Position numbers and translations under genes: made by a program. The notes below the pieces were generated by a model. That model was not told the DNA's origin. It made no database searches and saw nothing but the letters and a program-made list of their open reading frames with translations. DNA of 27,230 bases from Candidatus Eiseniibacteriota bacterium (GTDB lineage Bacteria > ARS69), in NCBI GenBank assembly GCA_052390515.1, contig JBQTGV010000138.1, positions 1-27,230 of the forward strand, written 5' to 3'. This document shows positions 2,891-23,129 of this stretch, piece by piece (within the stretch, counting starts at the first letter, position 1; each line of letters opens with the position of its first letter).

Positions 2891-3430
2891 TCAAGCTTGG
2901 CGATCCCGCTCGGCAGTCCCGCGCCGGATCCGCCAGAGGTCGGCCCGCCGGGAATCGGTCTCGAACACGGCGAACGTGGGATCGACATCCTCCGCCCCGA
3001 CCGGCTGGTAGCCCAGGATCGACCCCGGGTTGACGAGCCAGGCGTCTCCGACCCGCTCCAGGAGCGGCCGGTGATCGTGCCCGAAGCACACCAAGTCGAA
3101 CCGACCCGACGCGGCGAGCGGTCGGGCCACGTCGTCGAAGTGCTGCACGGCGAATCGGAGCCCGTCGAACTCACCGAGGAAGGACTCGCCGTGGAGGTGC
3201 ACGCGATCGGTCTTCGCCGCATTCAACTGGAGCCGCCAGCGGTCGGCGTCGTTATTCCCGAAGACGGCGTGGACGGGACCGGGGAACTCCCGGGCGAGGA
3301 TCGGCACGATGAACGGGGAGCACAGGTCCCCGCAGTGGATCAGCAGGTCGGCCTCCTCCCGCAGCCGGCCGAGGGCCGCTCGCAGGTTCCAGACGTGGTC
3401 GTGGCTGTCGGAGAGGATCCCGATGCGCAT
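2891..3430 (-). CDS. YfcE/MJ0936-family metallophosphoesterase (179 aa)
   Basis: Calcineurin-like motifs 'ILSDSH', 'HCGD', 'GNND', 'FGHDH', 'NPGS'; GAGGA RBS. Confidence 0.9.
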   Translation of the reverse strand: MRIGILSDSHDHVWNLRAALGRLREEADLLIHCGDLCSPFIVPILAREFPGPVHAVFGNNDADRWRLQLNAAKTDRVHLHGESFLGEFDGLRFAVQHFDDVARPLAASGRFDLVCFGHDHRPLLERVGDAWLVNPGSILGYQPVGAEDVDPTFAVFETDSRRADLWRIRRGTAERDRQA

Positions 3431-3544: not shown

Positions 3545-3805
3545 ATGCAGCTGAACGGGAACCTGGAGGCCCGCGTGCGGGACCTCATCGTCCGGGAGAT
3601 GCTCCAGGGCGAGGAGTCGGCGGATCTCACGTCGACGACCGAGCTGGTGGAGACCGGGATCGTCGACTCGATCAACGTCCTCAAGCTGGTGGACTTCGTC
3701 GAGGAGACCTGCTCGATCGAGCTCGAGCCCGAGGACATTCGGCAGTTCACCACCATCGCCGGTATCGTGCGAGTCGTCGAGAGCAAGGCCGGCCAGCAGG
3801 CCTGA
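3545..3805 (+). CDS. Stand-alone acyl carrier protein (86 aa)
   Basis: ATG 3545 after GGAGG; acidic small protein with 'LVETGIVDSINVLKLVDFVEE' Ppant-Ser motif and 'FTTIAGIVRVV' C-terminal helix. The longer ORF from 2849 overlaps the phosphoesterase antisense. Confidence 0.9.
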   Translation: MQLNGNLEARVRDLIVREMLQGEESADLTSTTELVETGIVDSINVLKLVDFVEETCSIELEPEDIRQFTTIAGIVRVVESKAGQQA

Positions 3806-3830
3806 CGCGCCGGCCAGCGGGACGAAATCG

Positions 3831-4823
3831 ATGGATCCGAGACTGGGCATCCTGTCCGCGGCCGTCCGTCTGCCGCGACGAACCCGCCCCGTCCCGGAGA
3901 TCTTCGCCGAGGAGGGCCTGCCGGAGGGCGAACGTGTGGCGCGGCTGCTCGGTATCGAGCGCGTCCCCGTCGCCGACGGCGAGCGCGGTTCGGAGCTGGC
4001 GCTCGCCGCCGCGCGCGAAGCCCTCGAACGCGCGGGCGTGGCCGCCGCCGACGTGGACGTGATCGTCGACGCGACCGCGCTTCCTCAGGAGTACCTCGTA
4101 CCGGCCTGGTCCATGAGCAACAAGCTGCAGCACGAGCTCGGGGCGAAGAAGGCGTTCACCATCGGGTTCAGCGGCGCCGGCGCCACGGGATTCCAGGTCG
4201 GACTGCACTTCGCCGCCTGCCTCGTCCGATCCGACCCGCGGATCCGGCACGTGCTGTGGCTCGCGGCCGACCTGTCTATCCCCGGGAACCGCGTGCTCGC
4301 CCCGGAGGACCCGGTCACCGTGCTCGGGGACGCGGCGAGCGCGGTGCTCCTCGGTCGAGGTGCCGACCGCGACGTCGTGGTGGACACGGCGCTCGCCTCG
4401 GACGGCGCGCTGCACGACGTGTGCTACATCCCCGGCGGCGCGATGACTCATCCCGACCGCCGCGATCTCTTCCGGCTTCGGCTGGACCGGGCGGCGTACC
4501 GCGCCGCGTCGCGGGTCGGGCCGCTCCGCGCACTGGCCGAGCGGATCCTGCACCGCCACGGCCTCGCGATCTCGGATGTCGCGGTGCATCTGCACCCGAA
4601 CCTCTCCGCGCCGGAGCGAGCCGAGCTCGATGCCGCGTTCGGCGTGTCCGGGAGCGGCGCCGCGTGCGGGAACCTGGCCGATCACGGCCACCTGCAGGCG
4701 AACGACTTCGTGGTCAACTGGCTCTCCGCCGCGGACGGCGGAAGCCTCCGCGAGGGCGACTGGATCCTGGCCGTCTCCCACGGCTTCGGCTTCACCTCCG
4801 GCGTCTCCCTTCTTCGCCACTGA
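3831..4823 (+). CDS. KAS III (FabH-fold)-like protein, catalytic Cys replaced by Ala (330 aa)
   Basis: FabH-fold motifs 'LGIERVPV', 'LGDAASAVLL', 'HGHLQAND', 'GFGFTSG'. The Cys position reads 'GAGATGFQVGL' versus 'GGCTSYHVAL' in the paralogue. Confidence 0.85.
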   Translation: MDPRLGILSAAVRLPRRTRPVPEIFAEEGLPEGERVARLLGIERVPVADGERGSELALAAAREALERAGVAAADVDVIVDATALPQEYLVPAWSMSNKLQHELGAKKAFTIGFSGAGATGFQVGLHFAACLVRSDPRIRHVLWLAADLSIPGNRVLAPEDPVTVLGDAASAVLLGRGADRDVVVDTALASDGALHDVCYIPGGAMTHPDRRDLFRLRLDRAAYRAASRVGPLRALAERILHRHGLAISDVAVHLHPNLSAPERAELDAAFGVSGSGAACGNLADHGHLQANDFVVNWLSAADGGSLREGDWILAVSHGFGFTSGVSLLRH

Positions 4824-4832
4824 GGATCGACC

Positions 4833-5852
4833 ATGGACGATGCGACGATCGGGATGCTGTCCGCGGCGTACTACCTGCCGCCACTGACGAAGCGGATCGC
4901 CGACGTGTTCCGCGACGAGCGGATCCCGACCACACCGTTCGCGGCCGGCATCGACTTCCAGCGGGACATCGGGATCGAGGCGGTGCACCTGGGCGGCGCG
5001 GAGTCCCCCTCCGACATCGGACTGGAGGCGTCGCGGCGGGCGCTCGCGGAGGCCGACATCGACGCCGCGGACCTCGACCTGATCATCGACTTCACCAGCA
5101 TCCCGGAGGACTACGTCGCGCCGACCTGGGCGGCGGCAGGGCGCGTGCAGGAGCAGCTCGGCGCGCGCAACGCCTTCGCCACAGCAGTGAACACCGGCGG
5201 CTGCACGAGCTACCACGTCGCCCTGCGCGCCGCGCGGAGCTGGATGCTCGGCGACGAGCGCTTCCGCACCGCGCTGCTCTTCGCCGGGGACAAGACGCCC
5301 GCGCTCAACAAGACGTACTACCCGATCACCGTCACCTGCGACGGCGGCAGCGCGGTCGTCTTGCGCCGCGGCCACGCCCGTCGCACGCTGCTCGCCGTGG
5401 AGGTCGTCACCGTCGGGGAGCTTCACGACGTGTGGTACGTGCCGGGGCCTTCGGCGGTGCCCCCGGGGGAGCCGTTCGGAGAAGAGATGCTCTACATGCG
5501 CAGCGACATGAAGCGCTTCAACGAGAGCGTGATCACCGTCAACCTGTTCATGTTCCGCAAGGTCATCAAGGCGGCGATGAAGAGCGCCGGCGTCACGGCG
5601 GAGGACATCGCCTGCTACGTTTATCCGACGTTCTCCACCTGGGATCAGAGCAGCTTTGCCCGCGGGCTCGGCATTCCCCCGGAGAAGGTTTACACCGACG
5701 GGCTGGCCCGACACGGCCACCTGCAGGAGAACGACATGGTGATGAACTACGTGGACGCCGCCCGAGAGGGGCGGTTCGCGGAGGGGGACCTGGTGATGGT
5801 CACGACGAACGGGGCCGGCTTCGCCTGGGGCGCGGCCGTGGTCCGGCATTGA
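4833..5852 (+). CDS. KAS III-like acyltransferase/condensing enzyme with Cys and GHxxxxD motif (339 aa)
   Basis: 'NTGGCTSY' catalytic Cys, 'CDGGSAVVL', 'HGHLQEND', 'GAGFAWGA'; clearly paralogous to the upstream gene. Confidence 0.88.
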   Translation: MDDATIGMLSAAYYLPPLTKRIADVFRDERIPTTPFAAGIDFQRDIGIEAVHLGGAESPSDIGLEASRRALAEADIDAADLDLIIDFTSIPEDYVAPTWAAAGRVQEQLGARNAFATAVNTGGCTSYHVALRAARSWMLGDERFRTALLFAGDKTPALNKTYYPITVTCDGGSAVVLRRGHARRTLLAVEVVTVGELHDVWYVPGPSAVPPGEPFGEEMLYMRSDMKRFNESVITVNLFMFRKVIKAAMKSAGVTAEDIACYVYPTFSTWDQSSFARGLGIPPEKVYTDGLARHGHLQENDMVMNYVDAAREGRFAEGDLVMVTTNGAGFAWGAAVVRH

Positions 5853-5859
5853 GGGCGGC

Positions 5860-7524
5860 ATGACCGGCGACGCGGCGAAAACGCACGACGTGGTGATCAT
5901 CGGCACCGGCTGGTCCGGCACCCTGCTCGCGGCGATCTTGGCGCGGCAGGGGGTCGACGTGATCCTGCTCGACAAGGGCACGCACCCCAAGTTCGCCGTG
6001 GGCGAGTCCACCATCCCGCACACCTCGCTGCTGCTGTCGATGCTGGCCGCGCGCTGGGACGTGCCGGAGATCGACCACCTCGCCTTCCCGGACCGCATCC
6101 AGAAACACGTCTGCACGACCTGCGGCATCAAGCGTTCCTTCGGCTTCGCCTGGCACCGGGAAGGGGAGGAACACGACCGCCGCGCGGCGCTGCTCTTCGG
6201 GACCGCATCCAAGGACGAGAACCACCTCTTCCGGCAGGACGTGGACGCGTACCTCTTCTACACGGCGCTCCGCTACGGGGCGAAGGTCCGCGAGGAAGTG
6301 GAGATCGCCGGGGTGACGATCGACGCGGGCGGCGTGCGTGTCGCGCTCCGCTCCGGCGAGGAGGTGCGCGCGCGCTACGTCGCCGACGCGACCGGCTTCC
6401 GCTCCGTGGTGGCGGACGCCCTGGACCTGCGGGAGAAGCCGACGTCGATCCGGCACCAGTCCCGCACCCTGTTCACGCACATGATCGACGTGAAGCCGTT
6501 CGACGAGACGGACACGCCGTTCCGGCAGGGATGGCACACGAGCACGCTGCATCACGTCTTCGATCGCGGCTGGTTCTGGGTCATCCCGTTCGACAACCAG
6601 AAGGGCTCCACGAATCCGGTCGTCAGCGTGGGACTCACCGTCGATCCGCGCAGCCACCCCAAGCCGGCCTCCTCCGGCGCGGCGGAGTTCGGCGAGTTCG
6701 TGCGCCGGTTTCCCAGCGTGATCCCGCAGTTCGAGAACGCGAAGGCGGTGCGCCCCTGGGTCTCGACCGGGCGCGTGCAGTACTCGTCGAAGCGGACCAC
6801 CGGATACCGCTTCACGCTGATGTCGCACGCGTCCGGGTTCGTGGATCCGCTCTACTCGCGGGGCTTGATCAACACGGTGGAGGTGATCACCGCGCTCGTG
6901 CCCAGGCTGCTGGCGGCGCTCGCGGACGACGACTTCGACCTGGAGCGTTTCGAGTCGATCGAGACGCTGCACCGTCGGATGATCCGGTACAACGATCGCC
7001 TCGTGAACGGATCCTTCGCCAGCTGGCGCGACTTCGACCTGTGGAACGCGTGGGTACGTGTGTGGGCCTTCGGCACGATCGTGACGGAGTTCCGCGTGAT
7101 GCGCGCGCTCTCCGAGTACACCGCCACGGGCGATGTGTCCCATCTGAACGGGAACTTGACCGATCCCGCGTTCTCCAACCTGGAGGATCCCGACTACCAC
7201 GCGTTCTTCCGCCGCGCGGTGGAACTGATGGATGCGTGCGAGGCGGGAACGGTGCCGGCCGCGGAGACGGCGACGCGGCTGTTCGCCCTGCAGGCGGACT
7301 ACGAATTCCCCATCCTGCTGAACGTTCCGGCCATGCGCCGGGCCGGCTGGCTGAAGGAGGGGGAGGAGATCAGCGAGCGGAGCATGCGTTTCGCGCGCGA
7401 GGGATACCGCTGGGCGCTGGCCAACCCGACGAGCCGCGACCTGTTCGGCACGGCGGAGACGCTGTACCGCTGGCGCGCGCACCGAGCCGATCCGCACCTC
7501 GAGGCGCGGGAGCCGGCGAAGTGA
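5860..7524 (+). CDS. FAD-dependent halogenase, PrnC-like (554 aa)
   Basis: 'IIGTGWSG' FAD motif, 'FAVGESTIP', 'GIKRSFGF' (putative catalytic Lys), 'RQDVDAYL', WxWxIP 'WFWVIPF', 'GFVDPLYSRGL', 'ALADDDF..ERF', all collinear with PrnC as I recall it. Confidence 0.92.
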   Translation: MTGDAAKTHDVVIIGTGWSGTLLAAILARQGVDVILLDKGTHPKFAVGESTIPHTSLLLSMLAARWDVPEIDHLAFPDRIQKHVCTTCGIKRSFGFAWHREGEEHDRRAALLFGTASKDENHLFRQDVDAYLFYTALRYGAKVREEVEIAGVTIDAGGVRVALRSGEEVRARYVADATGFRSVVADALDLREKPTSIRHQSRTLFTHMIDVKPFDETDTPFRQGWHTSTLHHVFDRGWFWVIPFDNQKGSTNPVVSVGLTVDPRSHPKPASSGAAEFGEFVRRFPSVIPQFENAKAVRPWVSTGRVQYSSKRTTGYRFTLMSHASGFVDPLYSRGLINTVEVITALVPRLLAALADDDFDLERFESIETLHRRMIRYNDRLVNGSFASWRDFDLWNAWVRVWAFGTIVTEFRVMRALSEYTATGDVSHLNGNLTDPAFSNLEDPDYHAFFRRAVELMDACEAGTVPAAETATRLFALQADYEFPILLNVPAMRRAGWLKEGEEISERSMRFAREGYRWALANPTSRDLFGTAETLYRWRAHRADPHLEAREPAK

Positions 7525-9314
7525 CGCGGCGCACTCTGCTCTGGATCGCGGGGAATCCGGAGGGGTCGTCGGCAGAGCTGGTCGCGCGCCTCGCGAGCGA
7601 GTCGGGAATCATCTGCCGGGACCCGGGCGAGGTGGCGCGCCGCTCGGCCGAGGCGGATGCGGCCGTCGTGGTGCTCGCCTCCGGCGACGGCACCCGAGAT
7701 TCCCTGCTCGCCGGATGTGGGCGTCTCGTCGGGAGCCTCGGCGAGGACCGCGTGTGTTTCGTGCGGGCCCGGGACGGGGGCGGCGGGTTTCCGGACGGCC
7801 TGTTCGATGCGCTCGTGGTAGAGCTCGACGACGGTGCGGATGTCGACCGATGTCTGGAGCGCATTCGCTCGTTCGTCCACGGCTCTTCCGGCGCGTCCCT
7901 CGGCTTCGGCGGAACGCTGGAGCGCGCGCGCCGCTCGGCGGAACGGGCTCTCTCCGAGCTGCGCGGCGCGGGGTGCGACGGCCGCGCGGAGCATCCCGTC
8001 GTCCTCGATTCGGCCGGCGCGTGCGTGTCGGCCTACGCCGATGCTCTGGATCTCGTGCAGCGACGCTTCTGGACGACCACCGTCCTCACGTCGGGTTTCT
8101 GGACGCACCGCGTCGACGCCGTCCTCGACGCGAACCGGCGCATGATGCGAAGGCTCGCCGGCGGTGCCGGCGCCCGACGCCTCTTCCTGCTGGACCGCCC
8201 GGCGGAGCAGGTCGTGGCCGCCTACCGCGAACGGCGCATCCTCCTCGATCGGACGGGCAACGCGGGAGACGTCGCGGCGTTCGACGAGGAGACCGACACG
8301 CTGATCCGTAACGTCGCCGCGCTCGTGGCGGAGGGCTGCGAGCTCCGGGTGGCCTTCGATGGAACGGCGGCGTCGGCCCGGCTCCCAGCGGAGCTGGGCT
8401 GGAGGCAGGACGACTCGGAGATCGCCGTATACGACGACTTCCGCGTGGACGTCTTCGAGGGAGGGCGCGCCGGCGCGATCCGCCGCGTCCAGGGATTCAC
8501 GCCGGCCATGCGCCGCTTCCCGGAGCACCTGCAGGCCGCCGAGCGGTTCTTCCTCGAACTGTGGAACGGCGCCGCAGTCATGGACGACTTCCTCCGCGAT
8601 CTGAGCGCGGCGCTCGAATCCGCGAAAGGCCGGATCCACTACAGGGCGAACTGGCTCGCGCGCTACGAGTTCGCTCTCGACGAGGGCGACGCGGCGTTGA
8701 AGCAGGCGGAGGCCGAGCGGCTGGAGGAAGCGCTGCGCGCGCACGGGTTCTGGGGCGGCGTCGGCTCGGTGCTCGACGTCGGCACGTGCACGGCACGGTA
8801 CCCCTTGCTCCTGCGTCCCGCGGTCCGGGACGACGGCACGATCGTCGGCGTGGACGACGATCCGGACTGCGTGCAGTTCGCGCGGGAGAACGTGGCCCGC
8901 GCCGCGCCCGGGGACTCCCGGATCGTCCTGGTGCGTGCCGACTTCGCCGCGCGGGACCTGACGCTTCCGGGCGCGCCGTTCGATCTGGTCACGTGCATGA
9001 TGAGCACCGTCTCGCACTTCGGGCGCGGCCGGCGGGCCGATTTCGGCGATCCGTTGCAGGCCGTGATGAGGCGCTTCGCCGGCTTGCTCTCCCCGGACGG
9101 CCTGCTCGTGCTGAGCAGCTGGTCCCGGACCGCGCTCGAGAGCGGCCGGCTCCTCGCGATCTACGACGAGCCGGACTGCAAGAGGCTCGTGGAGTGGACG
9201 CCGCAGGCCGACGAGCTGGACGCGCGGCTTCTCGCCGCCGGCCTGCGCGCAGTCGAGCGGTCCGTGCCCGATCCACGGCTCGATCTGCTCGTGTGCAGGA
9301 AGGTCGCGGCATGA
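7521..9314 (+). CDS. Multidomain protein: degenerate TIR-like N-terminus, PLD-like middle domain, C-terminal class I SAM methyltransferase (597 aa)
   Basis: GTG at 7521 overlaps the halogenase stop (GTGA); stop overlaps the NRPS1 ATG. MTase motifs 'VLDVGTCTARY', 'IVGVDDD', 'RADF', 'FDLVTCM', 'LLSPDGLLVL'. N-terminal and middle domain calls are weaker. Confidence 0.7.
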   Translation: MTRRTLLWIAGNPEGSSAELVARLASESGIICRDPGEVARRSAEADAAVVVLASGDGTRDSLLAGCGRLVGSLGEDRVCFVRARDGGGGFPDGLFDALVVELDDGADVDRCLERIRSFVHGSSGASLGFGGTLERARRSAERALSELRGAGCDGRAEHPVVLDSAGACVSAYADALDLVQRRFWTTTVLTSGFWTHRVDAVLDANRRMMRRLAGGAGARRLFLLDRPAEQVVAAYRERRILLDRTGNAGDVAAFDEETDTLIRNVAALVAEGCELRVAFDGTAASARLPAELGWRQDDSEIAVYDDFRVDVFEGGRAGAIRRVQGFTPAMRRFPEHLQAAERFFLELWNGAAVMDDFLRDLSAALESAKGRIHYRANWLARYEFALDEGDAALKQAEAERLEEALRAHGFWGGVGSVLDVGTCTARYPLLLRPAVRDDGTIVGVDDDPDCVQFARENVARAAPGDSRIVLVRADFAARDLTLPGAPFDLVTCMMSTVSHFGRGRRADFGDPLQAVMRRFAGLLSPDGLLVLSSWSRTALESGRLLAIYDEPDCKRLVEWTPQADELDARLLAAGLRAVERSVPDPRLDLLVCRKVAA

Positions 9315-12300: not shown

Positions 12301-12541
12301 CTTCGATCTCGGCGGCCACTCGCTGCTCCTGGTGGAAGTGCACGACGCCCTTCGCCCATTCGCGCCGCGACAGGTCTCCGTGGTGGACCTGTTCCACCAC
12401 CCGACGGTCGAGGCGCTGGCGGCCTTCCTCGACGGCGCGCGTCCGGACTCCGCTTTGGAGAGCGTGGCGGAGCGTGCCGGCCGCCAGCGGGAGGCGTTCA
12501 CGCGTGCGCGGCAGGACAGGGAGGGGCGGCGCCATGAGTGA
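9311..12541 (+). CDS. NRPS module C(starter-like)-A-PCP (1076 aa), A domain Pro/imino-acid-like
   Basis: ATG 9311 (ATGA overlap). C 'HHLTADG'; A 'YVIYTSGSTGKPKG', 'NQYGPSET', 'YKTGDL', 'PNGKVDR'; PCP 'NFFDLGGHSLL'. Confidence 0.95.
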   Translation: MNSPAHELRSESDLRDLQLLLWLGQTLAPEAPGYSLPFAFEIRGELDPVHFENAVRAFVERCDAARMIFEEVDGRPRQRVRALDLHLERQDFSGDRNADARLEAWLAERVSRAFRLDERLFDTALVRMAPDRFVWYWNQHHLTADGWSYGLMLRRVGEYYGLSREGRLAGAAELPSFAAYLAKERAGRPLRAKSGTAGAEPPNAPLEWYGRTDAVKSLAERRVTRALGARRTRGLRRLAADPAFRSLGSELTVLELLAAATTAYVHRVTGARRIALGIPFAHRSTPEEREVCGLLQEMIPLDLVLAEGETLRSLAAKVDAEIWRSLRRVRAGAAPAGGTSRYEILLNYPAVTFAELDGLPVHARWIHPGFGDGQRSLFVQIHDFDGRDELVLHFDANAGIFAGELAERAAGHLAAAIDRLIEDPDQLVERLDLLGDAERELVVRGFNRTGEEYPPGEVADLFEQQAAKTPEREALVFGDGAWTYAELDRAASRLARFLRERGAAPGVCVASCVERSVESVVGLLAVWKCGAAHVPIDPTYPRERIAFLLEDSASRILLTQERWLGLLPASRPETVVLDRLDLQGLPDDPAERSLVLSDLAYVIYTSGSTGKPKGVAMSCRALVNLVRWQVRQPTPLAAPRTLQFTPLTFDVSMQEMLSTWAAGGTLVLIPEETRRDPEATLRWIEEQRVERLFIIFTPFQRIAEAADRTGIVPRRLREVITAGEQLQITPAVRRFFERLPGCSLTNQYGPSETHIVTAGHVEGAPSEWPLLPSIGRPIANTEAYVLDDALRPVPVGVTGELWIGGAQVAEGYVRRPELTAERFVPDLFRGEAGARLYKTGDLARWNEDGSIAFLGRRDHQIKLRGYRIELGEIESVLAAHPDVEQAAALARANGGEPRLLAWVVPRGEADAKLPLRLRRWLEERLPEPMVPSAFVVLDALPVTPNGKVDRLALPEPDGARPELESAYVAPATSLERTIAGIWRSVLGVDRVGLRDNFFDLGGHSLLLVEVHDALRPFAPRQVSVVDLFHHPTVEALAAFLDGARPDSALESVAERAGRQREAFTRARQDREGRRHE

Positions 12542-17708: not shown

Positions 17709-20700
17709 CGGCTCGCCGAGCGCCGCTCTCGCTCGCCCAGCAGCGGCTATGGCTGCTCGAGCAGCTCGAGCCGGAAAGCCGCGCGTACCACATGCGAGCG
17801 GCGTTCCGCGTGCACGGCGAGATCGACGTCCACCGCCTCGAGCGAAGCGTCGCCGAGATCGTGAGACGCCACGAGCCGTTGCGTACGACGTTCGCGTCGG
17901 AAGGCGGCGAGCCGGTACAGGTGATCCACGAGTCGGTCGAGCATCGCATTCTGCTGGACGACCTGACCGGCGTGAACGCGGCGGACCAGGAGACGGAGCT
18001 GCAGCTCCGGATGACCCGCGAGGTGCGCCGCCCGTTCGACCTCGGGGAAGGCCCGCTCCTGCGCGTCGTGCTGTACCGGTGTGACGCGCGGAAGCACGTG
18101 TTGCTGATCGTCGTGCATCATCTCGTCGCCGACGGATGGTCGATGGGCCTCTTCGCCCGGGAGCTGGTCGACCTGAACGCGGCGCTCTCCGAGGGGCGGC
18201 CGTCCCCGTTGCGAGCGCTGCCGTTGACGTACTCGGAGCACGCCGCACGCCAGCGGGGCGAGATCGAGAGTGGCGCTCTCGACGAGCAGCTCTCCTGGTG
18301 GACGAGGCAGCTGGCCGGCGCGCCCGCTTCCACCGATCTTCCCACCGACCGGCCGCGCCCTCCGTCGCAGGGGCACCGCGCGGGGGTAGTGACCGGGAGG
18401 ATCCCGGCGGCGGAAGTCGCGGCGCTCGACCGGCTGGCGCGCGCCGAGGGCGTGACGCCTTTCATGGTGCTGCTCACCGCGGTCGCGCTGGTGGTGCACC
18501 GTCACACTGCTGCCACCGACGTCGTCCTCGGAACGCCCATCGCCAACCGGAACTGGGCGGACGTCGAGGAGCTCATCGGGTTCTTCGTGAACACGCTGGC
18601 GCTGCGCGTCGACCTCGCCCGGGATCCCACCTTCCGCGAGTTGCTGGCCCGCGTGCGCGCCACGGCGATCGACGCCTTCGATCGTCAGGATCTGCCCTTC
18701 GAGCGTCTGGTCGAGGAGCTGCGCCCGCCGCGCGATCCGAGCCGCACGCCGCTCTTCCAGGTGATGCTGCTCGTCCAGAACGTGCCGCTGCCGCGGCTCG
18801 AGGGAGGCGGGCTGCGCCTCGAGTACCTGGAGGTCGAGTGCGGGACGGCGCGCTTCGACCTGTCGCTATTCGCGCGGCGGGAAGCGGACGAGCTCGCGCT
18901 GCTGGCCGACTACGACGCGGACCTGTTCGACGAGGCGACGATCGAGCGGCTGCTCGCCCGGTTCCGGCGTGTGCTGGACCGCGCCTGCGCCGAACCGGAT
19001 CAGCGCATCGGCGACCTCGATCTCCTCGGCGCAGACGAACGGCGCCTGTTGGACGAGCTGAACCGGACGGAGGCGGAGTATCCCGAGGTCACCCTGGCGG
19101 ATCTCTTCGAGGCGCAGGCGGCGCGCACGCCGGAGGCGCCGGCGCTCGTGGACGGGGACGAGCGTCTGACCTTTGCCGAGCTGAACGCACGGGCGAATCG
19201 CCTGGCGCTCCGGCTGCGGAGGGAAGGTGTCGCCGGCGGAGACGTGGTCGCGGTGCGGCGCGAGCGATCGGCCGGCGCAGTGATCGCCCTGCTCGCCGCC
19301 ATGAAGGCGGGCGCCGCGTGGCTTCCGGTCGATCCTTCCTTCCCGGCGGAGCGCGTCGAGTTCATGCTGCGGGACGCGAAGCCGCGGGTAGTGCTCGGAG
19401 ACGACGAGGAGGACTCCATCGGCGAGCCGGCGACGAACCCCCCGCGAACGACGACGGCGGACGACGTGGCCTGGGTGCTGTACACCTCCGGCTCGACGGG
19501 CACGCCGAAGGGTGTGCTCGGACTGCACCGGGGTGCGGTGAACCGCATCGTCTGGGGCTGGCGGGAGCACCCCTTTCGACCGGGCGAGGTCGCCTGCCAC
19601 AAGACGCCGCTCGGGTTCGTGGACTCGGTGCAGGAGGTCCTCGGCCCGCTGCTCGCGGGCGTGCCGGTGGTGGTCGCGCGGGACGACACGGCCCGCGATC
19701 CGCGCGCGCTCGTGGAGGCGATGGCGCGGCACTCGGTGAGCCGGCTCGTCGTCGTGCCGTCGCTGCTGCGCGCGCTGCTCGACCTGCCGGGGGATCTGCG
19801 GGCGAAGCTGCCGGCACTGGCCCTCGTCATCAGCAGCGGGGAGCGCCTGACCGCGGACCTCATCGACGGGTTCCAGCGCAGGCTTCCGGGCACGCGGCTG
19901 GTCAACCTCTACGGATCCTCCGAGGTGTCCGCGGACGTGACCGCATGGGACGCACCGGCCCGCGGCGGCACCGGCGACGCGCTGCTCGGGAGGCCCATCG
20001 CCAACGCGCGCATCCACGTGCTGGACGAGCGCGGGCGTTCCGCGCCGATCGGCGTGCCCGGCGAGATCGTGGTCGGGGGCGCAGGTCTCGCGCGGGGGTA
20101 CCTCGGCCGTCCCGAGCTCACCGCGGAGCGTTTCGTCGCCGACCCCTTCGCCGGGCGTCCCGGAGAGCGGCTCTACCGCACCGGGGATCGTGGCCGGATC
20201 CGCGCCGACGGGAACCTCGAGTATCTTGGCCGGAGCGACCACCAGCTCAAGATCCGCGGTGTGCGCATCGAGCCGGGCGAGACCGAGGCGGCGCTCCTCG
20301 AGCACCCTGCCGTGCGAGAGGTCGTCGTCGGCGCACGGGAGCGTAGGTCCGGGGACCCGGATCTCGTAGCTTGGTTCGTGACCGACCGCGATCCGGCGCC
20401 GGTGTCCGAGGAGCTGCGCGCGTTCCTCGCGGCGAAGCTGCCGGCGTTCCTGGTGCCGAGCCTCTTCGTCCGAGTCGCCGATGTGCCGCGCACCCCGAGC
20501 GGCAAGGCGGACCGCGCGAAGCTCACGCTGCCGGAGGCAGCCGCGGGACCCGCAGCAGGCGACGTGCCGCGGACGCCCTTCGAGCAGCTCCTCGCGGAGA
20601 TCTGGCGGGAGGAGATCGGCATCGCCGCGGTGCGCACCGCGGACAACTTCTACGACGTCGGTGGACACTCGCTGCTCGCGGTCCGCGTAGTCGAGAAGCT

Positions 20701-20878
20701 GCGCGAGCGCAGCGGCATCCGGCTCCCACCGCGCGATCTCCTGCTGCAGACCCTCGGCCAGGTCGCGCGGCGCTGCGAGCAACGGGAGCGGGAGAGGTCG
20801 GCGCGCGCACCGACGCTCGGCCGAAAGCTCCTCGGTGCGGCGCGACGTCTCGCCGGGCGCGGGGGCGGCGATGCCTGA
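17705..20878 (+). CDS. NRPS module C-A-PCP (1057 aa), A domain beta-alanine-like, no TE
   Basis: GTG 17705 overlaps the PKS stop. C 'LSLAQQRLW...HHLVADG...IGFFVNTL'; A 'YTSGSTGTPKG', 'GFVDSVQE', 'NLYGSSEVSAD', 'YRTGD'; PCP 'NFYDVGGHSLL', followed only by a short basic tail. Confidence 0.95.
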   Translation: MTARRAPLSLAQQRLWLLEQLEPESRAYHMRAAFRVHGEIDVHRLERSVAEIVRRHEPLRTTFASEGGEPVQVIHESVEHRILLDDLTGVNAADQETELQLRMTREVRRPFDLGEGPLLRVVLYRCDARKHVLLIVVHHLVADGWSMGLFARELVDLNAALSEGRPSPLRALPLTYSEHAARQRGEIESGALDEQLSWWTRQLAGAPASTDLPTDRPRPPSQGHRAGVVTGRIPAAEVAALDRLARAEGVTPFMVLLTAVALVVHRHTAATDVVLGTPIANRNWADVEELIGFFVNTLALRVDLARDPTFRELLARVRATAIDAFDRQDLPFERLVEELRPPRDPSRTPLFQVMLLVQNVPLPRLEGGGLRLEYLEVECGTARFDLSLFARREADELALLADYDADLFDEATIERLLARFRRVLDRACAEPDQRIGDLDLLGADERRLLDELNRTEAEYPEVTLADLFEAQAARTPEAPALVDGDERLTFAELNARANRLALRLRREGVAGGDVVAVRRERSAGAVIALLAAMKAGAAWLPVDPSFPAERVEFMLRDAKPRVVLGDDEEDSIGEPATNPPRTTTADDVAWVLYTSGSTGTPKGVLGLHRGAVNRIVWGWREHPFRPGEVACHKTPLGFVDSVQEVLGPLLAGVPVVVARDDTARDPRALVEAMARHSVSRLVVVPSLLRALLDLPGDLRAKLPALALVISSGERLTADLIDGFQRRLPGTRLVNLYGSSEVSADVTAWDAPARGGTGDALLGRPIANARIHVLDERGRSAPIGVPGEIVVGGAGLARGYLGRPELTAERFVADPFAGRPGERLYRTGDRGRIRADGNLEYLGRSDHQLKIRGVRIEPGETEAALLEHPAVREVVVGARERRSGDPDLVAWFVTDRDPAPVSEELRAFLAAKLPAFLVPSLFVRVADVPRTPSGKADRAKLTLPEAAAGPAAGDVPRTPFEQLLAEIWREEIGIAAVRTADNFYDVGGHSLLAVRVVEKLRERSGIRLPPRDLLLQTLGQVARRCEQRERERSARAPTLGRKLLGAARRLAGRGGGDA

Positions 20879-21623
20879 CGGCGGACTCGACGTCTTCCGC
20901 TTCGGGTCGTCGGCGTCGCCGAAGCTGGGCTGCTTCCACCGGCCCGAGGTCGGCGCGGCGTCGCGGCGGACTGCCGTCGTTCTGTGTCCGCCGCTGGGGC
21001 ACGAGACCATCCGCTCGCACCGGGCATACCGGCGGCTCGCGGGCGAGCTCGCTGCGGCAGGGCACGCGGTCCTGCGCTTCGATCTCACCGGCACGGGCGA
21101 CTCGGCCGGAGGAGAAGAGCTCTGGGGCCTGGAGACGTGGACCGCCGACGTGGTCGACGCGATGGACGAGGTCCTGCGGCGCGGCTCCGGCGCGTCGTCG
21201 CTCTGCCTGGTCGGCGGCCGGCTCGGTGCGGCGCTCGCCGTGCGCGCGGCGGATCGGCGGCGCGACGTGGCGGCACTCGTCCTCTGGGACTCTCTGTTCT
21301 CGGGAAGAGATGCTCTCGCGGAGCTCGCCGCGGAGCACCGCCGGGTGGTGAGCACGGCGCACGTGAGCCGGAAGGCTCGAGCGGGGGCGAGCGGCGACAT
21401 GGAGTTTCTCGGATTCGAGCTGTCCGCCTCGTTTCGCCGGGAGCTCGAGGCGATGGAGGTCGCCGTGCCGGCCGGAGATTCGCCCGCGGTGCTGCAGGTG
21501 GCGACGACATCGTTCCCGGAGAGCGAATCGCCCTGGATGTGGATGGAGGACGTGGCTCGCGCGGTGCTTCCGGTGAGGGTGGTGCGGGAGATCACTTCGT
21601 GGGTCCGGGCACGGTGCCCGTGA
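20871..21623 (+). CDS. Alpha/beta-hydrolase-fold protein lacking a nucleophile (exosortase-A-associated hydrolase 2-like, 250 aa)
   Basis: 'VVLCPPLGHE', 'LRFDLTGTGDS', elbow 'LVGGRLGA' (Arg at the nucleophile site), 'LVLWD', 'EFLGFEL'; ATG 20871 overlaps the NRPS2 end. Confidence 0.8.
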   Translation: MPDGGLDVFRFGSSASPKLGCFHRPEVGAASRRTAVVLCPPLGHETIRSHRAYRRLAGELAAAGHAVLRFDLTGTGDSAGGEELWGLETWTADVVDAMDEVLRRGSGASSLCLVGGRLGAALAVRAADRRRDVAALVLWDSLFSGRDALAELAAEHRRVVSTAHVSRKARAGASGDMEFLGFELSASFRRELEAMEVAVPAGDSPAVLQVATTSFPESESPWMWMEDVARAVLPVRVVREITSWVRARCP

Positions 21624-22477
21624 GGGAGTCGGTGCGGCGGTTCGGGCCGGAGGGGTCTCTGGTCGGTGTCCTGACCGAACCGGCGTCCGGCGCCCGGGGA
21701 CTTCCCGCGGTGCTGCTGCTGAACTCGGGCATCGTGCATCGGGTCGGACCGAATCGTGTCCACGTGGCGATCGCGCGGCGCCTCGCCGCGGCCGGATACC
21801 CGGTGTTGCGATTCGACTTCTCCGGCGTGGGCGACTCGCCGGCGCGGGTCGATCATCTGCCGTTCGAGGAGAGCTCGGTCGAGGAGACCCGCGCGGCGAT
21901 GGATCACCTGTGCGACACGACGGGCACGGACCGCTTCGTGCTAGCCGGGATCTGCTCGGGCGCCGACGTCGCGCTGGTGACGGCGGGAGCGGACCGACGT
22001 GTCGCCGGTGTCGCGGCCGTCAACGCGCGACGCTTCGCCGCGTCCGACGAGACCTTCGCCGCCGTCCGAGAGCGCGCCGTGGCGAAGCACTACCGTCGCA
22101 TCGCGACGAGCGGCTCCTTCGGGGGGAAGAGCTTGGCGAAGCTCTCGCTCGGGCGGATGCGGTGGGGCGCCGTGCTCCGCGCGCTCGGGTCGCAGCTGCC
22201 GCGCCTCTCGACACCGTCGGCCGTGGGCTCGCACGGCCTCGCCCCGCTGCTCGATGCGGGCACGCCCATCTATTGCCTGCACTCCGAGGCGGACGAGGGG
22301 CTGGACCACCTGTACGCTCTGGCGGGCCGGGATCTCGGCGCGCTGCGCGCTTCGCCGGCGTTCCGCTTCGAGGTGATCGAGGGCGCGGATCACACGTTCA
22401 CGATGCGCTGGAGCCAGAACGTCCTGATCGAGTGCCTCGCAGGCTGGATGGAGGAGCGGTTCGGTCGTGTCGGATAG
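21620..22477 (+). CDS. Alpha/beta hydrolase with Cys nucleophile (exosortase-A-associated hydrolase 1-like, 285 aa)
   Basis: GTG 21620 (GTGA overlap). 'LNSGIVHRVGPNR', 'LRFDFSGVGDS', elbow 'AGICSGA', 'HSEADE', 'GADHTF' catalytic His. Confidence 0.85.
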   Translation: MRESVRRFGPEGSLVGVLTEPASGARGLPAVLLLNSGIVHRVGPNRVHVAIARRLAAAGYPVLRFDFSGVGDSPARVDHLPFEESSVEETRAAMDHLCDTTGTDRFVLAGICSGADVALVTAGADRRVAGVAAVNARRFAASDETFAAVRERAVAKHYRRIATSGSFGGKSLAKLSLGRMRWGAVLRALGSQLPRLSTPSAVGSHGLAPLLDAGTPIYCLHSEADEGLDHLYALAGRDLGALRASPAFRFEVIEGADHTFTMRWSQNVLIECLAGWMEERFGRVG

Positions 22478-23129
22478 CCTGACGGACGCGTTGCGCCCGC
22501 TTTTCCCGGCGGCGGTGGAAGTCGACGCCGGCGTTCCGGCGGGGATCCTGGGCCGGCTCTTCCCCGAGGAGGAGGCGCTCATCGCCCGCGCCGTGGAGAA
22601 GCGCAGGAGCGAGTTCCGCGCAGGCCGCATCCTCGCGCGGCGGGCGCTCTCGCGGCTCGGCGTGGCCGAGGTGCCGATCCTGGCGAAGGAGCGACGGCCG
22701 CTCTGGCCGGAGGGAATCGTCGGGTCGATCTCGCACGCGGACGGCTGCTGCGCGGTCGCCGTGGCGCGGCGCGGACCGATCCTGGGCGTCGGACTCGACG
22801 TGGAGGTCGAGGGCGCCGTGACGGAGAGGATCTTCGCCCGCATCGCCACGCCGGAGGAACGGGAGTGGATCCACGGCCGCGACGAGCCGCGGCGATGGGG
22901 CACGGTGATCTTCAGCGCGAAGGAGGCGTTCTACAAGAGCCTCGCGGCCGTGCACGAGACCTGGGTCGGCTTCCACGACGTGCGTGTCGAGGTCCAGGAC
23001 GCCGGGACGTTCCGCGTGACGCCGATCCGTGAGTCGGTGCGCGCGGCGGTCGCGGGGCGGGGACTCTCCGGGCGGTGGTGCGTCACCGGCCGCCGGGTGT
23101 TCGCCGCGCTGACGCTGAGCGAGGCCTGA
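22467..23129 (+). CDS. 4'-phosphopantetheinyl transferase (EntD/Sfp type, 220 aa)
   Basis: 'KRRSEFRAGR', 'PLWPEGIVGSISH', 'GLDVE', 'FSAKEAFYK'. Confidence 0.93.
   Translation: MSDSLTDALRPLFPAAVEVDAGVPAGILGRLFPEEEALIARAVEKRRSEFRAGRILARRALSRLGVAEVPILAKERRPLWPEGIVGSISHADGCCAVAVARRGPILGVGLDVEVEGAVTERIFARIATPEEREWIHGRDEPRRWGTVIFSAKEAFYKSLAAVHETWVGFHDVRVEVQDAGTFRVTPIRESVRAAVAGRGLSGRWCVTGRRVFAALTLSEA

What the first reader, a model, noticed from the sequence alone, without database searches (positions are those of the whole stretch)
3545..23129. Self-contained NRPS-PKS operon predicting a halogenated, O-sulfated acyl-(Pro-like)-ketide-(beta-Ala) product with non-canonical start and release
Seen: ACP, two KAS III-like genes, halogenase, MTase fusion, C-A-PCP, KS-AT-KR-ACP-ST, C-A-PCP, two hydrolases and a PPTase, coupled and bounded on both sides. 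Inference by collinearity: acyl starter, then a Pro/Pip-like residue, then malonyl extension and ketoreduction (a dolaproine/statine-like beta-hydroxy-gamma-amino acid), then O-sulfation, then beta-Ala, then release in trans. I do not recognise this architecture from any characterised cluster, though I cannot search to confirm that.
Basis: partly seen in the sequence, partly recalled or inferred. Interest (0 to 1): 0.9.

Follow-up and report, generated by a model that had tools for sequence, protein, structure and literature searches.

The report
Orphan halogenase-sulfotransferase NRPS-PKS gene cluster
This is a real, intact eleven-gene operon for a small, still unknown peptide-polyketide natural product, notable because it places a curacin-type sulfate-adding domain in the middle of the assembly line and releases the product with an unusual cysteine hydrolase pair.

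Summary

The collinear reading is mostly supported:
- The first C domain is closest to starter-type C domains.
- The first A-domain code is Pro-like.
- The module KS-AT(malonyl)-KR-ACP-ST follows, and its ST is 2.6e-60 to CurM ST.
- The second A-domain code is beta-Ala-like.
- There is no cis thioesterase.

New here:
- Orthologous clusters sit in MAGs of three other phyla. The Chloroflexota copy has a DH domain where this one has ST.
- The ST falls in a clade of PKS modules that end in ST without TE.
- The "two hydrolases" are a Cys-nucleophile enzyme and an Arg-substituted dead partner, predicted to bind each other.
- One KAS III-like protein lacks its cysteine.
- The "MTase fusion" is degenerate TIR-like + PLD-like + MTase.

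Whether the sulfate stays in the product or leaves cannot be read from sequence. I found no characterised equivalent, but MIBiG could not be searched. This scan has reported mid-line ST domains before on other DNA. I rate it a new variant of a known kind, of moderate interest.

The parts
3545..3805 (+). g1, free-standing acyl carrier protein (86 aa) with the Ser attachment site in VDSINV
   Evidence: PF00550, 1.2e-5. Best NCBIfam hit is ACP_for_OlsHI at 50 bits, below its 130-bit cut-off. The Ser motif is conserved in 2 of 2 orthologs.
3831..4823 (+). g2, KAS III-like protein that has Ala at the nucleophile position; probably a non-catalytic partner of g3
   Evidence: ACP_syn_III, 3.2e-6. It has Ala where g3 has Cys, and orthologs have Gly, Asp and Gly there (3 of 3 are not Cys). 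The GH...D motif is retained.
4833..5852 (+). g3, DpsC/CerJ-like KAS III-type acyltransferase/ketosynthase with Cys plus the GHLxxxD His/Asp motif
   Evidence: PDB hits: FabH 4dfe 6.9e-21 and DpsC 4xs7 4.8e-15. The alignment puts GHLQEND on DpsC GHLGGGD, and the FabH His and Asn are not conserved. Cys, His and Asp are conserved in 3 of 3 orthologs.
5860..7524 (+). g4, flavin-dependent halogenase of the CtcP/PltM (phenol/enol-type) group
   Evidence: PDB hits: 7xgb CtcP 1.8e-130 and 6bza PltM 2.2e-100. GTGWSG and WFWVIP motifs are present. Lys91 aligns with a Lys shared by CtcP and PltM.
7521..9314 (+). g5, three-part protein: degenerate TIR-like N-terminus (about 1-125), PLD/TrmB-like fold without the HKD motif (about 125-400), and a class I SAM methyltransferase (about 400-597)
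   Evidence: Methyltransf_25 and related families. 35 of 40 aligned family members carry PF10137 CAP12/PCTIR TIR, but the window copy gives no hit. AF2 model pLDDT is 87.5. The MTase part resembles CcbJ, DnrK and SgvM. The middle domain gives weak PLD/TrmB-type matches, TM 0.32-0.40 among the top ten.
9311..12541 (+). g6, NRPS module: starter-type C, A (code DVQ(I/F)IAQIVK, Pro-like), PCP
   Evidence: Pfam. HHLTADG motif and the code. The C domain is nearest to 7c1k/7c1h and to CDA synthetase I 5du9/4jn3. The code is identical in L092 and L093.
12534..17708 (+). g7, PKS module KS-AT(malonyl)-KR-ACP-ST; the protein ends with the ST domain
   Evidence: Pfam. KS Cys and His residues, AT GHSVG and HAFH. 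ST versus CurM ST 4gbm 2.6e-60 and OLS ST 4gox 2.5e-57, with the PRSGST and PPEL segments aligned. The ST sits in the clade of ST-terminal PKSs.
17705..20878 (+). g8, NRPS module: C (ordinary elongation type), A (code VDQVISLADK, beta-Ala-like), PCP; no TE
   Evidence: Pfam. Motifs and code. The C domain is nearest to Txo2 and Txo1. Orthologs keep VDWVVSLADK and VDW(T/V)SSLADK.
20871..21623 (+). g9, alpha/beta-fold pseudo-hydrolase with Arg at the nucleophile position (GGRLG) and no conserved His
   Evidence: Hydrolase_4. TIGR03101-like at 88 bits, below the 203-bit cut-off. The PDB alignment puts Arg on the Ser of GFSLG. Arg is conserved in 3 of 3 orthologous places.
21620..22477 (+). g10, alpha/beta hydrolase with a Cys nucleophile (GICSG) and conserved His258; proposed chain-release enzyme
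   Evidence: TIGR03100-like at 94 bits, below the 168-bit cut-off. Cys aligns with the Ser of GLSMG. Cys is present in 119 of 121 and His in 121 of 121 family members aligned. Complex prediction with g9: ipSAE 0.91 against 0.00 for the best control.
22467..23129 (+). g11, Sfp-type 4'-phosphopantetheinyl transferase
   Evidence: 4PPT_N 1.5e-26 and ACPS 8.8e-16. PptT- and Npt-like, below their cut-offs.

Best explanation
The operon encodes a complete hybrid NRPS-PKS assembly line for a small, so far unknown metabolite.

Proposed route:
1. g11 phosphopantetheinylates the four carrier domains.
2. g3, a Cys-His-Asp KAS III-type enzyme of the DpsC/CerJ kind, works with its nucleophile-less paralogue g2. 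It loads an acyl-CoA-derived unit onto the free ACP g1, or condenses it there.
3. The CtcP/PltM-type halogenase g4 and the methyltransferase of g5 tailor an electron-rich (enol or phenol-like) position, most simply on this starter.
4. The starter-type C domain of g6 N-acylates a Pro-like imino acid.
5. g7 extends the chain with malonate and reduces the ketone. Its C-terminal CurM-family ST transfers sulfate from PAPS to the ACP-bound beta-hydroxyl.
6. g8 condenses the chain with beta-alanine.
7. The g9/g10 heterodimer takes the chain off the last PCP through a thioester on Cys112 of g10.

My lean is that the product keeps the sulfate ester (about 50%) rather than losing it (about 35%).

Shown by sequence: domain content, order, intact motifs, conservation in orthologs.
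Inferred: every chemical step, the substrates, and the fate of the sulfate.
For: - Domains and coupling.
- Starter C: nearest structures are 7c1k 7.5e-26 and 7c1h 8e-26, which I recall as the rhizomide starter C domain, then CDA synthetase I 5du9 1.5e-13 and 4jn3 3.3e-13.
- A-domain codes are conserved across phyla.
- KS, AT and KR motifs are intact.
- ST: 2.6e-60 to CurM ST, with the PAPS-loop and PPEL segments aligned. An APS kinase is present in the genome.
- Fused KS-AT-KR-ACP-ST-C-A proteins exist, so ST followed by C is a hard-wired order elsewhere. 9 of the 120 listed ST relatives have a C domain directly after ST.
- Assembly-line ST domains whose sulfate stays in the product are known: DysB of the dysinosins (passages read). 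A statement in PMC11730487 says that TE-less ST homologues likely give sulfated metabolites.
- g3 and g2 residues.
- Halogenase motifs.
- Release pair: it is conserved downstream of NRPS modules at another cluster copy in the Planctomycetota MAG (L150) and in an unrelated Gly-ketide-Gly line (L041). Cys is conserved in 119 of 121 family members.
- Predicted g9-g10 complex: score 0.91, best of 3 controls 0.00. The mark was reached by 58 of 80 solved complexes and 2 of 110 mismatched pairs. These counts hold only roughly because my own alignments were used. Runs agree in at least 77% of contacts and partner pLDDT is at least 87. The interface includes g10 residues 112-113 and 255-259, next to the catalytic Cys and His.
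- The Rhodothermales ortholog replaces the pair by a cis TE on the same module, which fits a release role.
Against: - Nothing here is biochemical.
- The substrate names for both A-domain codes rest on signatures I recall, not on a predictor. My literature searches for these strings found nothing.
- Position 278 of the first code reads I or F depending on the alignment.
- The operon has no CoA ligase or other source for an unusual starter.
- The halogenase is closest to enzymes that act on free phenolic substrates, so it may act after release.
- The Chloroflexota ortholog has KR-DH-ACP and no ST. That fits a leaving-group role for sulfate at least as well as retention.
- The window's ST has Trp where CurM has His in PPELHLL. 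I could not check the importance of that residue because the CurM ST paper is not held.
- g2-g3 pairing was not tested.
Confidence: 0.55

Rival explanations
1. Same assembly line, but the ST stands in for a dehydratase. Sulfation makes the beta-hydroxyl a leaving group, and sulfate is eliminated on the ACP, in the downstream C domain, or at release. This gives a 2-enoyl (vinylogous imino acid) unit, so the final product carries no sulfate.
For: - In the orthologous Chloroflexota cluster the flanking genes are 49-66% identical and in the same order. There the PKS is KS-AT-KR-DH-ACP, with an intact HxxxGxxxxP motif and no ST.
- That genome has no close relative of the ST; its best match is 3.2e-12 at 26% identity, on another contig.
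- The ST's only characterised close relatives, CurM and OLS, use sulfate as a leaving group.
- All release enzymes of this cluster family use Cys, including the cis TEs of the Rhodothermales and Chloroflexota copies (SFCLG, SLCYG). This hints at non-hydrolytic end chemistry.
Against: - There is only one DH-bearing ortholog, and its last module also differs (C-PCP-TE, no A domain). The products need not be the same.
- CurM/OLS elimination needs the dedicated decarboxylating TE, which is missing here.
- The window's ST lies in a separate clade from the ST-TE proteins.
- Secondary alkyl sulfates are stable and occur in products of ST-containing assembly lines.
Confidence: 0.3
2. The front cassette (ACP, two KAS III-like proteins, halogenase, MTase) works like ChlB2-ChlB6 of chlorothricin or the CalO and Avi systems. 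An aromatic acid made elsewhere is parked on the ACP, chlorinated and O-methylated there, and then handed to the NRPS as an aryl starter.
For: - The gene set matches: ACP + two KAS III-like + flavin halogenase + MTase.
- g3 hits ChlB3 (7eqi, 1e-9) and CerJ (3s3l, 4e-7).
- The halogenase hits ChlB4 (7fco, 5e-17) and belongs to phenol-type halogenases.
- The Cys-His-Asp arrangement is that of acyl-transferring KAS III homologues (the triads of CerJ and DpsC are recalled).
Against: - There is no iterative PKS, chorismate-derived pathway gene or aryl-CoA ligase in the window or in the orthologous loci examined.
- g2 lacks a nucleophile, so there are not two active transferases as in ChlB3/ChlB6.
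- The similarity to ChlB3 and ChlB4 is weak compared with FabH/DpsC and CtcP/PltM.
Confidence: 0.2
3. Sulfate is displaced intramolecularly, or the Cys-bound chain is closed by a weak nucleophile. Release then gives a strained or cyclic product (for example a lactam or lactone), not a linear acid.
For: - Cys-nucleophile thioesterases are the ones known to make the beta-lactam of sulfazecin and the beta-lactone of obafluorin. The sulfazecin route also uses a sulfotransferase (passages read in PMC11298585).
- Every release enzyme of this cluster family has Cys at the nucleophile position.
Against: - g10 belongs to a different alpha/beta-hydrolase subfamily from SulM and ObiF. In that subfamily Cys is the rule (119 of 121), so Cys is a family trait, not a pathway-specific adaptation.
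- No nucleophile can be named from sequence.
- This is pure analogy.
Confidence: 0.08

Closest known systems
CurM (curacin A) and olefin synthase ACP-ST-TE termination modules
   Same: KS-AT-KR-ACP-ST order. The ST domain is 2.6e-60 to CurM ST (4gbm) and 2.5e-57 to the OLS ST (4gox) over its whole length. Sulfation of an ACP-bound beta-hydroxyl is therefore the expected reaction.
   Different: There is no decarboxylating TE. The ST is the last domain of the protein and is followed by an NRPS C-A-PCP module. The ST belongs to a separate clade containing 49 of the 55 ST-terminal proteins in my sample (SH-aLRT 98, quick tree, midpoint rooting).
NRPS-embedded sulfotransferase domains that leave sulfate in the product
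   Same: An ST domain is built into an assembly line with no TE partner, and the product is sulfated (DysB passage; general statement in PMC11730487).
   Different: Those act on a glyceric acid starter made by an FkbH-type loading module. Here the target would be a KR-made beta-hydroxyl in a PKS elongation module. I did not compare their sequences with this ST.
DpsC / CerJ / ChlB3-type KAS III homologues and the PqsBC heterodimer
   Same: g3 shares the GHLxxxD His/Asp segment with DpsC. It hits DpsC, ChlB3 and CerJ structures. The pairing of an active and a nucleophile-less paralogue recalls PqsC/PqsB (recalled).
   Different: g3 has Cys where I recall DpsC having Ser. Similarity to PqsC is marginal (6esz, 3.2e-4). 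The substrate is unknown. The g3 family is large and well conserved: 213 proteins at E <= 1e-30, and the 120 listed are all at least 52% identical. To my knowledge it is unstudied.
CtcP (tetracycline 7-halogenase) and PltM (phloroglucinol halogenase)
   Same: 1.8e-130 and 2.2e-100 over about 470 residues. GxGxxG, WxWxIP and the aligned Lys are all present.
   Different: The setting is an NRPS-PKS operon next to an ACP and KAS III-like genes, and the substrate is unknown.
Exosortase A-associated hydrolase 1 / hydrolase 2 pair (TIGR03100 / TIGR03101)
   Same: g10 best matches hydrolase 1 and g9 best matches hydrolase 2. Like those, they are an adjacent pair of distantly related alpha/beta-fold proteins. 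That the TIGR pair always occurs together, near an acyl-CoA ligase and an ACP, is recalled from the family descriptions.
   Different: Scores are far below the family cut-offs (93.7 against 168.45; 88.3 against 202.75). The setting here is the end of an NRPS-PKS line.
Cys-nucleophile thioesterases SulM-TE and ObiF1-TE
   Same: A catalytic Cys instead of Ser in the chain-release enzyme (for SulM and ObiF; for g10).
   Different: Those are cis TE domains of the classical TE family. g10 is a free-standing member of another subfamily and comes with a dead partner.

Membership tests
CurM/OLS-type 'activating' sulfotransferase module (ACP-ST-TE) | ST domain homologous to CurM ST over its full length, with the PAPS-binding loop | tested here: met
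   4gbm 2.6e-60, residues 12-301 of 302 aligned. PRSGSTL and RHP segments are conserved.
CurM/OLS-type 'activating' sulfotransferase module (ACP-ST-TE) | Catalytic Glu in the PPEL segment (role recalled) and the neighbouring His | tested here: inconclusive
   PPEL is conserved, but the following His of CurM (PPELHLL) is Trp here (PPELWLL). This Trp is invariant in the four closest homologues (W1486). The paper defining the residue roles is not held.
CurM/OLS-type 'activating' sulfotransferase module (ACP-ST-TE) | ST directly followed by a decarboxylating thioesterase | tested here: not met
   g7 ends 23 residues after the ST Pfam match, and the next gene starts with a C domain. The ST is in the clade of ST-terminal proteins, apart from the ST-TE rows.
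Flavin-dependent halogenase | GxGxxG FAD motif, WxWxIP motif, conserved catalytic Lys | tested here: met
   GTGWSG at 15 and WFWVIP at 238. Lys91 aligns with Lys of CtcP and PltM. Whole-protein E is 1.8e-130 to CtcP.
FabH-type KAS III (condensing enzyme of fatty acid synthesis) | Cys-His-Asn catalytic triad | tested here: not met
   In g3 the FabH His aligns with Pro, and the Asn segment GNTSAAS aligns with GHLQEND. NCBIfam FabH models score far below their cut-offs. g2 also lacks the Cys.
DpsC/CerJ-type KAS III-like acyltransferases | Nucleophile plus His and Asp in a GHLxxxD-type segment | tested here: met
   This holds for g3: Cys in GGCTS, and GHLQEND aligned on DpsC GHLGGGD. Both are conserved in 3 of 3 orthologs. 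g2 keeps His and Asp but has Ala at the nucleophile position. The catalytic roles of the DpsC residues are recalled.
Starter (lipoinitiation) condensation domain | N-terminal C domain with HHxxxDG that is closest to known starter C domains rather than to elongation C domains | tested here: met
   HHLTADG. The best structures are 7c1k, 7c1h and 7c1p (7.5e-26 to 2.3e-24). CDA synthetase I 5du9/4jn3 score 1.5e-13 and 3.3e-13, and SrfA-C 2vsq scores 8.5e-15. By contrast, the g8 C domain hits Txo2 at 4.7e-98. That 7c1h and 4jn3 are starter C domains is recalled. No phylogenetic typing was done.
beta-Alanine-activating A domain | Specificity code with Val-Asp at positions 235/236 and Asp at 331 | tested here: inconclusive
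   The code VDQVISLADK was extracted by motif and cross-alignment. Orthologs have VDWVVSLADK and VDW(T/V)SSLADK. The reference signature is recalled. No predictor was available, and literature string searches returned 0 papers.
Exosortase A-associated hydrolases 1 and 2 (TIGR03100/TIGR03101) | Score above the curated cut-off | tested here: not met
   g10 scores 93.7 bits against 168.45, and g9 scores 88.3 against 202.75. These are the best-matching families only.
CAP12/PCTIR TIR-like domain proteins | Pfam PF10137 match in the N-terminal domain | tested here: not met
   The window's g5 gives no hit, while 35 of 40 aligned family members do. The model of residues 1-125 has only moderate confidence, pLDDT about 47-74 per block.
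Sfp-type PPTase | 4PPT_N plus ACPS domains | tested here: met
   1.5e-26 and 8.8e-16.

The most novel reading that the evidence does not exclude
The TE-less clade of PKS-terminal ST domains, to which this one belongs, represents a second, undescribed use of activating sulfation in assembly lines. KR-ACP-ST would act as a dehydratase surrogate or leaving-group installer for the next C domain or for a Cys-dependent release enzyme. In this cluster family it would be interchangeable in evolution with a DH domain. The product would then be a halogenated, methylated acyl-(vinylogous imino acid)-beta-alanine, or a cyclised derivative, rather than a sulfate ester.
Probability: 0.33. Interest if true: 0.75.

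Novelty: new variant of a known kind. Interest (0 to 1): 0.5.

Why it matters
Only one role has been shown biochemically for PKS-embedded CurM-type sulfotransferases: decarboxylative alkene formation together with a TE.

In my sample of 120 relatives, proteins that end in ST without a TE were as frequent as ST-TE proteins (55 against 52, by a heuristic classification). Most of them form their own clade. To my knowledge, and in the literature I could search, none has been studied.

This operon is small (19.6 kb), complete and carries its own PPTase. A natural ST-to-DH swap exists in an orthologous cluster. It is therefore a convenient system for asking what a mid-line ST does.

It also offers a compact test case for two further unstudied parts:
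- a widespread Cys-hydrolase/pseudo-hydrolase pair that seems to unload carrier proteins;
- a conserved active/inactive KAS III-like pair.

If the product is simply a sulfated lipopeptide-like molecule, the finding is an ordinary orphan cluster from a little-sampled phylum (12 species genomes held).

Tried and rejected
- **Genome-contig scan with the ST domain alone.** 600 pattern matches, none a relative.
- **The single metagenome scan.** It returned 79 general PKS loci at 38-58% identity and none of the four close relatives. Only L041, L018 and L068 were of some use.
- **Synteny in the four close relatives.** I could infer it only from equal contig lengths. The PKS homologues P0003-P0006 and the g10 homologues P0272-P0275 both sit on contigs of 36945, 16966, 17869 and 39280 nt. 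The closest g3 homologues sit on other contigs of 5204, 2091 and 21862 nt, so the front of the cluster is not confirmed there.
- **Searches of related genomes:**
  - g5: 4 of 61 genomes matched, counting the window's own. The other three matches were weak and covered the MTase part only, E 1.5e-4 to 3.8e-4.
  - ST: 1 of 12 genomes in the phylum, the window's own.
  - ST: 2 of 301 genomes in the class of the Rhodothermales MAG.
  - ST: 0 of 401 sampled Chloroflexota; the tool warns that an empty answer shows nothing.
  - g3: 1 of 401 sampled Planctomycetota, which is the MAG already known.
- **Literature:**
  - Strings for A-domain codes: 0 papers.
  - The string 'KS-AT-KR-ACP-ST': 2 papers held, 1 listed, on olefin synthase.
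  - Four combined-term searches gave no characterised cluster of this layout.
  - The CurM ST structure paper (PMC3528841) is not held.
  - Supplements were not consulted.
- **Fold search of the whole g5 model.** It returned only methyltransferases, so the middle domain was modelled separately. Even then the PLD/TrmB matches are weak, TM 0.32-0.40 among the top ten.
- **Lys44 of g4.** I first took it for the catalytic lysine, but it is Arg in 3 of 3 orthologs. Lys91 is the aligned one.
- **proC-like gene at 24632-25672.** I considered it as a supplier of the imino acid. It lies beyond a convergent gene on the other strand, and no homologue turned up in the five extra regions fetched from the three MAGs, L150-L154. 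I dropped the idea.
- **Locus L133 (MTase + one NRPS).** ORFs were listed but the locus was not analysed further.
- **The ST tree.** It is the quick version. The careful search did not finish in the time allowed.
- **Promoter and terminator scans.** They found nothing.

Full report
**What is there.** The window is a whole 27,230-bp contig of a 4.27-Mb, 223-contig genome (95% complete) with about 71% GC throughout. Third-position GC separates real genes from the many chance ORFs. Between 3545 and 23129 lie eleven + strand genes. Three small gaps (25, 9 and 7 nt) and seven overlaps of 4-11 nt join them.

- an ACP;
- two ACP_syn_III-type proteins;
- a Trp_halogenase/FAD_binding_3 protein;
- a 597-aa protein ending in a methyltransferase;
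- C-A-PCP;
- KS-AT-KR-ACP-Sulfotransfer_3;
- C-A-PCP;
- two alpha/beta hydrolases;
- a 4PPT_N+ACPS PPTase.

Upstream is a divergent metallophosphoesterase gene. Downstream is a convergent gene for a lipoprotein-like protein with an Invasin_D3/Big_1 domain, whose stop abuts the PPTase stop. The promoter and terminator scans were uninformative.

**The core line.**
- The g6 C domain has HHLTADG. It is nearest to 7c1k/7c1h (7.5e-26 and 8e-26) and also hits CDA synthetase I 5du9/4jn3. I recall these as starter (acyl-accepting) C domains.
- The g8 C domain instead hits ordinary elongation C domains, Txo2 at 4.7e-98.
- I read the A-domain codes from the core motifs and cross-checked them by aligning the two domains on each other.
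- g6 gives DVQ(I/F)IAQIVK and g8 gives VDQVISLADK. As I recall the reference signatures, the first is Pro-like, with His-to-Gln and two conservative changes. The second matches beta-Ala in nine of ten positions. No predictor was available, and text searches for such strings found no paper.
- The codes are conserved across very distant orthologs. The g6 code is identical in 2 of 2 full-length orthologs that are about 50% identical overall. The g8 code reads VDWVVSLADK and VDW(T/V)SSLADK in the two g8 orthologs. This argues for a fixed pair of building blocks.
- In g7 the KS keeps its Cys and both His residues, the AT has GHSVG and HAFH (malonyl, motif meaning recalled), and the KR keeps its Tyr region.

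**The sulfotransferase.** The ST aligns end to end with CurM ST (4gbm, 2.6e-60) and the olefin synthase ST (4gox, 2.5e-57). The PRSGST loop and the PPEL segment are conserved. The His that follows in CurM is Trp here and in the four closest homologues. The genome has an APS kinase.

A search with the ST region found 205 relatives in proteins of 948-3017 aa, of which 120 were listed. A heuristic classification of those 120 gave:
- 55 that end within 80 residues after ST;
- 52 with a TE-like tail;
- 9 with a C domain right after ST;
- 4 others.

Three of the nine were checked by Pfam. P0056 and P0064 are KS-AT-KR-ACP-ST-C-A with a further carrier domain. P0086 is KS-AT-KR-ACP-ST-C followed by a carrier domain, with no A-domain match. 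In a quick maximum-likelihood tree of the 120 ST domains, 49 of the 55 ST-terminal rows form one clade that includes the window's (SH-aLRT 98). The tree is midpoint-drawn and the careful search was unfinished. So this ST is a CurM relative, but it belongs to a distinct, TE-less group.

Both fates of sulfate have precedents. It acts as a leaving group in CurM and OLS. It is retained in dysinosins, made by the ST-containing DysB. PMC11730487 states that TE-less homologues likely give sulfated metabolites.

**Orthologous clusters.** No relative in the window's own phylum has the cluster. The phylum holds only 12 species genomes, all of one family.
- ST: 1 of 12 genomes, the window's own.
- g5: only weak, MTase-only matches.

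A scan with an alignment of g5 relatives returned 51 loci. 48 of them gave any tblastn hit at E <= 1e-6, and 15 hit the NRPS or PKS proteins. Two (L092, L130) carried ACP, both KAS III-like genes and the halogenase. Following three MAGs gave:

- **Chloroflexota (G061):** two FG-GAP/ASPIC genes, ACP, KAS, KAS, halogenase, X-MTase, C-A-PCP, KS-AT-KR-DH-ACP, C-PCP-TE, then transposases. It has no close ST relative and no g10 homologue.
- **Rhodothermales (G062, three contigs):** KAS, KAS, halogenase; then X-MTase, C-A-PCP and the start of the PKS; then ST followed by C-A-PCP-TE.
- **Planctomycetota (G063, three contigs):** ACP, KAS, KAS, halogenase, MTase only, C-A-PCP; then a PKS running into ST; then ST fused to FG-GAP repeats, C-A-PCP fused to FG-GAP repeats, a 393-aa ORF with no Pfam match, and g9-like and g10-like genes.

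Four close metagenome homologues of the PKS (66-92% identical in the ST region, all with ST) sit on contigs of the same lengths as the four closest g10 homologues. The front half and the imino acid module are therefore the conserved core of a cluster family scattered over at least four phyla. The beta-hydroxyl-processing domain (ST or DH) and the release device (trans pair or cis TE) vary. The DH-for-ST swap is the main reason I give the leaving-group reading about one chance in three. It is a single case, and that cluster's last module differs too.

**The start.** g3 aligns with FabH and DpsC. Its Cys is in place. The FabH His and Asn are not conserved. Instead g3 shares the GHLxxxD segment of DpsC, which I recall as holding the catalytic His and Asp. 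g2 has the same segment but Ala at the nucleophile position, and its orthologs have Gly, Asp and Gly there, while g3's Cys, His and Asp are kept in 3 of 3. This looks like an active/inactive pair. I did not test whether they bind each other. The g3 family is large and tightly conserved: 213 proteins at E <= 1e-30, and the 120 listed are all at least 52% identical.

The halogenase is a clear CtcP/PltM relative with GxGxxG, WxWxIP and the aligned Lys91. These enzymes act on electron-rich phenol- or enol-type carbons. The target may therefore be a beta-ketoacyl or aromatic starter on the ACP, or the released product. Sequence does not decide this.

**g5.** It belongs to a family of about 640-aa proteins: 214 representatives at E <= 0.001 and 96 at E <= 1e-30. 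35 of 40 aligned members start with a CAP12/PCTIR TIR-like domain. The window's copy has lost a recognisable one, and the Planctomycetota ortholog keeps only the MTase.
- The middle domain models confidently (pLDDT 85.7) and gives weak matches to PLD-fold and TrmB ligand-binding domains. No HKD motif appears among the invariant residues.
- The MTase part resembles natural-product N-, O- and C-methyltransferases.
- The MTase is the part tied to the pathway. The other two domains are unexplained.

**The release.** PDB alignments place Cys112 of g10 on the nucleophilic Ser of related hydrolases, and Arg117 of g9 on the same position.
- Arg is kept in 3 of 3 orthologous places. Cys is kept in 2 of 2 that cover the site.
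- In the wider g10 family, Cys occurs in 119 of 121 sequences and the His in 121 of 121.
- g9 has no conserved His.
- The best-matching named families are the exosortase A-associated hydrolases 1 and 2, far below their cut-offs.
- The same pair follows an unrelated Gly-ketide-Gly line in L041.

The complex prediction supports binding:
- Score 0.91, best of 3 controls 0.00.
- The mark was reached by 58 of 80 solved complexes and 2 of 110 mismatched pairs. These counts hold only roughly because my own small alignments were used.
- Runs agree in at least 77% of contacts, and partner pLDDT is at least 87.
- The interface touches g10 residues 112-113 and 255-259.
- This is a model's confidence, not a measurement.

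The cis TEs of the Rhodothermales and Chloroflexota copies also have Cys at the nucleophile position (SFCLG, SLCYG). Cys thioesterases are known from beta-lactam and beta-lactone formation. Because Cys is the rule in the g10 family, I treat cyclising release only as a low-probability rival.

**Verdict.** Three of its claims are not established by the evidence:
- "O-sulfated": the fate of the sulfate is open.
- "Self-contained": there is no transporter, regulator or PAPS-synthesis gene.
- Uniqueness: the layout recurs.

I found no characterised cluster of this layout in the searchable literature, but MIBiG could not be queried. Earlier notes of this scan describe mid-line CurM-type ST domains in other genomes and reached the same "recurrent but uncharacterised" conclusion.

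What this window adds is a compact, complete example with a natural ST/DH swap among its orthologs, and a defined Cys-hydrolase/pseudo-hydrolase release pair. I class it as a new variant of a known kind, with interest 0.5.

Noticed in passing
L092:2650-5879; L150:12611-15319(-) and 7369-12624(-): FG-GAP/UnbV_ASPIC repeat proteins travel with this cluster family. Two genes lie directly upstream of the ACP in the Chloroflexota copy. In the Planctomycetota copy, FG-GAP repeats are fused to the C-termini of the PKS-ST protein and of the last NRPS module. The window's cluster has none, though its genome is rich in such repeats: at least 150 FG-GAP_3 matches on other contigs. Their role is unknown.
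   Followed up: partly
window 7521-9314 and loci L094-L137: The g5 family (TIR-like + PLD-like + MTase, about 640 aa) is spread over Acidobacteriota, Actinomycetota (Pseudonocardiaceae, Frankia), Cyanobacteria, Bacteroidota and others. Members hit PADLOC TIR effector and Pycsar TIR models. 15 of the 48 loci that gave any hit have NRPS/PKS-like matches within 10 kb, some of them weak. Whether the family is a defence or signalling gene recruited as a tailoring enzyme is open.
   Followed up: partly
window 24632-25672 (-): A pyrroline-5-carboxylate reductase homologue (P5CR_dimer, F420_oxidored) lies two genes downstream of the operon on the other strand. The listed ORF has an apparent N-terminal extension of about 80 residues. 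It is tempting as a source of a proline-like unit, but no homologue turned up in the five extra regions fetched from the three MAGs.
   Followed up: partly
window 133-3222 (-) and 25928-27229 (-): Two large flanking genes. One is a protein of about 1000 aa ending in a Peptidase_S74 (endosialidase chaperone) domain. The other is a DUF11-repeat protein with FlgD_ig and a type IX secretion (Por_Secre_tail) sorting domain, cut by the contig end.
   Followed up: no
G000, other contigs (C35, C31, C209, C58, C37, C120 and others): The genome has ten matches to Sulfotransfer_3, several in long open frames of 730 and 1062 aa. Sulfation may be a wider theme in this organism.
   Followed up: no
G000 and its relatives: The window's phylum is represented by only 12 species genomes, all in one family. 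None of the other 11 shows this ST or a full g5 homologue. GC content of the operon does not differ from its flanks.
   Followed up: partly
L041 (metagenome contig, 18,104 bp): An unrelated line...DH-ER-KR-ACP, then a 655-aa ORF with only a weak, below-cut-off EamA match, then C-A(Gly-like)-PCP, KS-AT-KR-ACP, C-A(Gly-like)-PCP. It ends with the same g9-like/g10-like hydrolase pair. This suggests the pair is a portable release module.
   Followed up: partly
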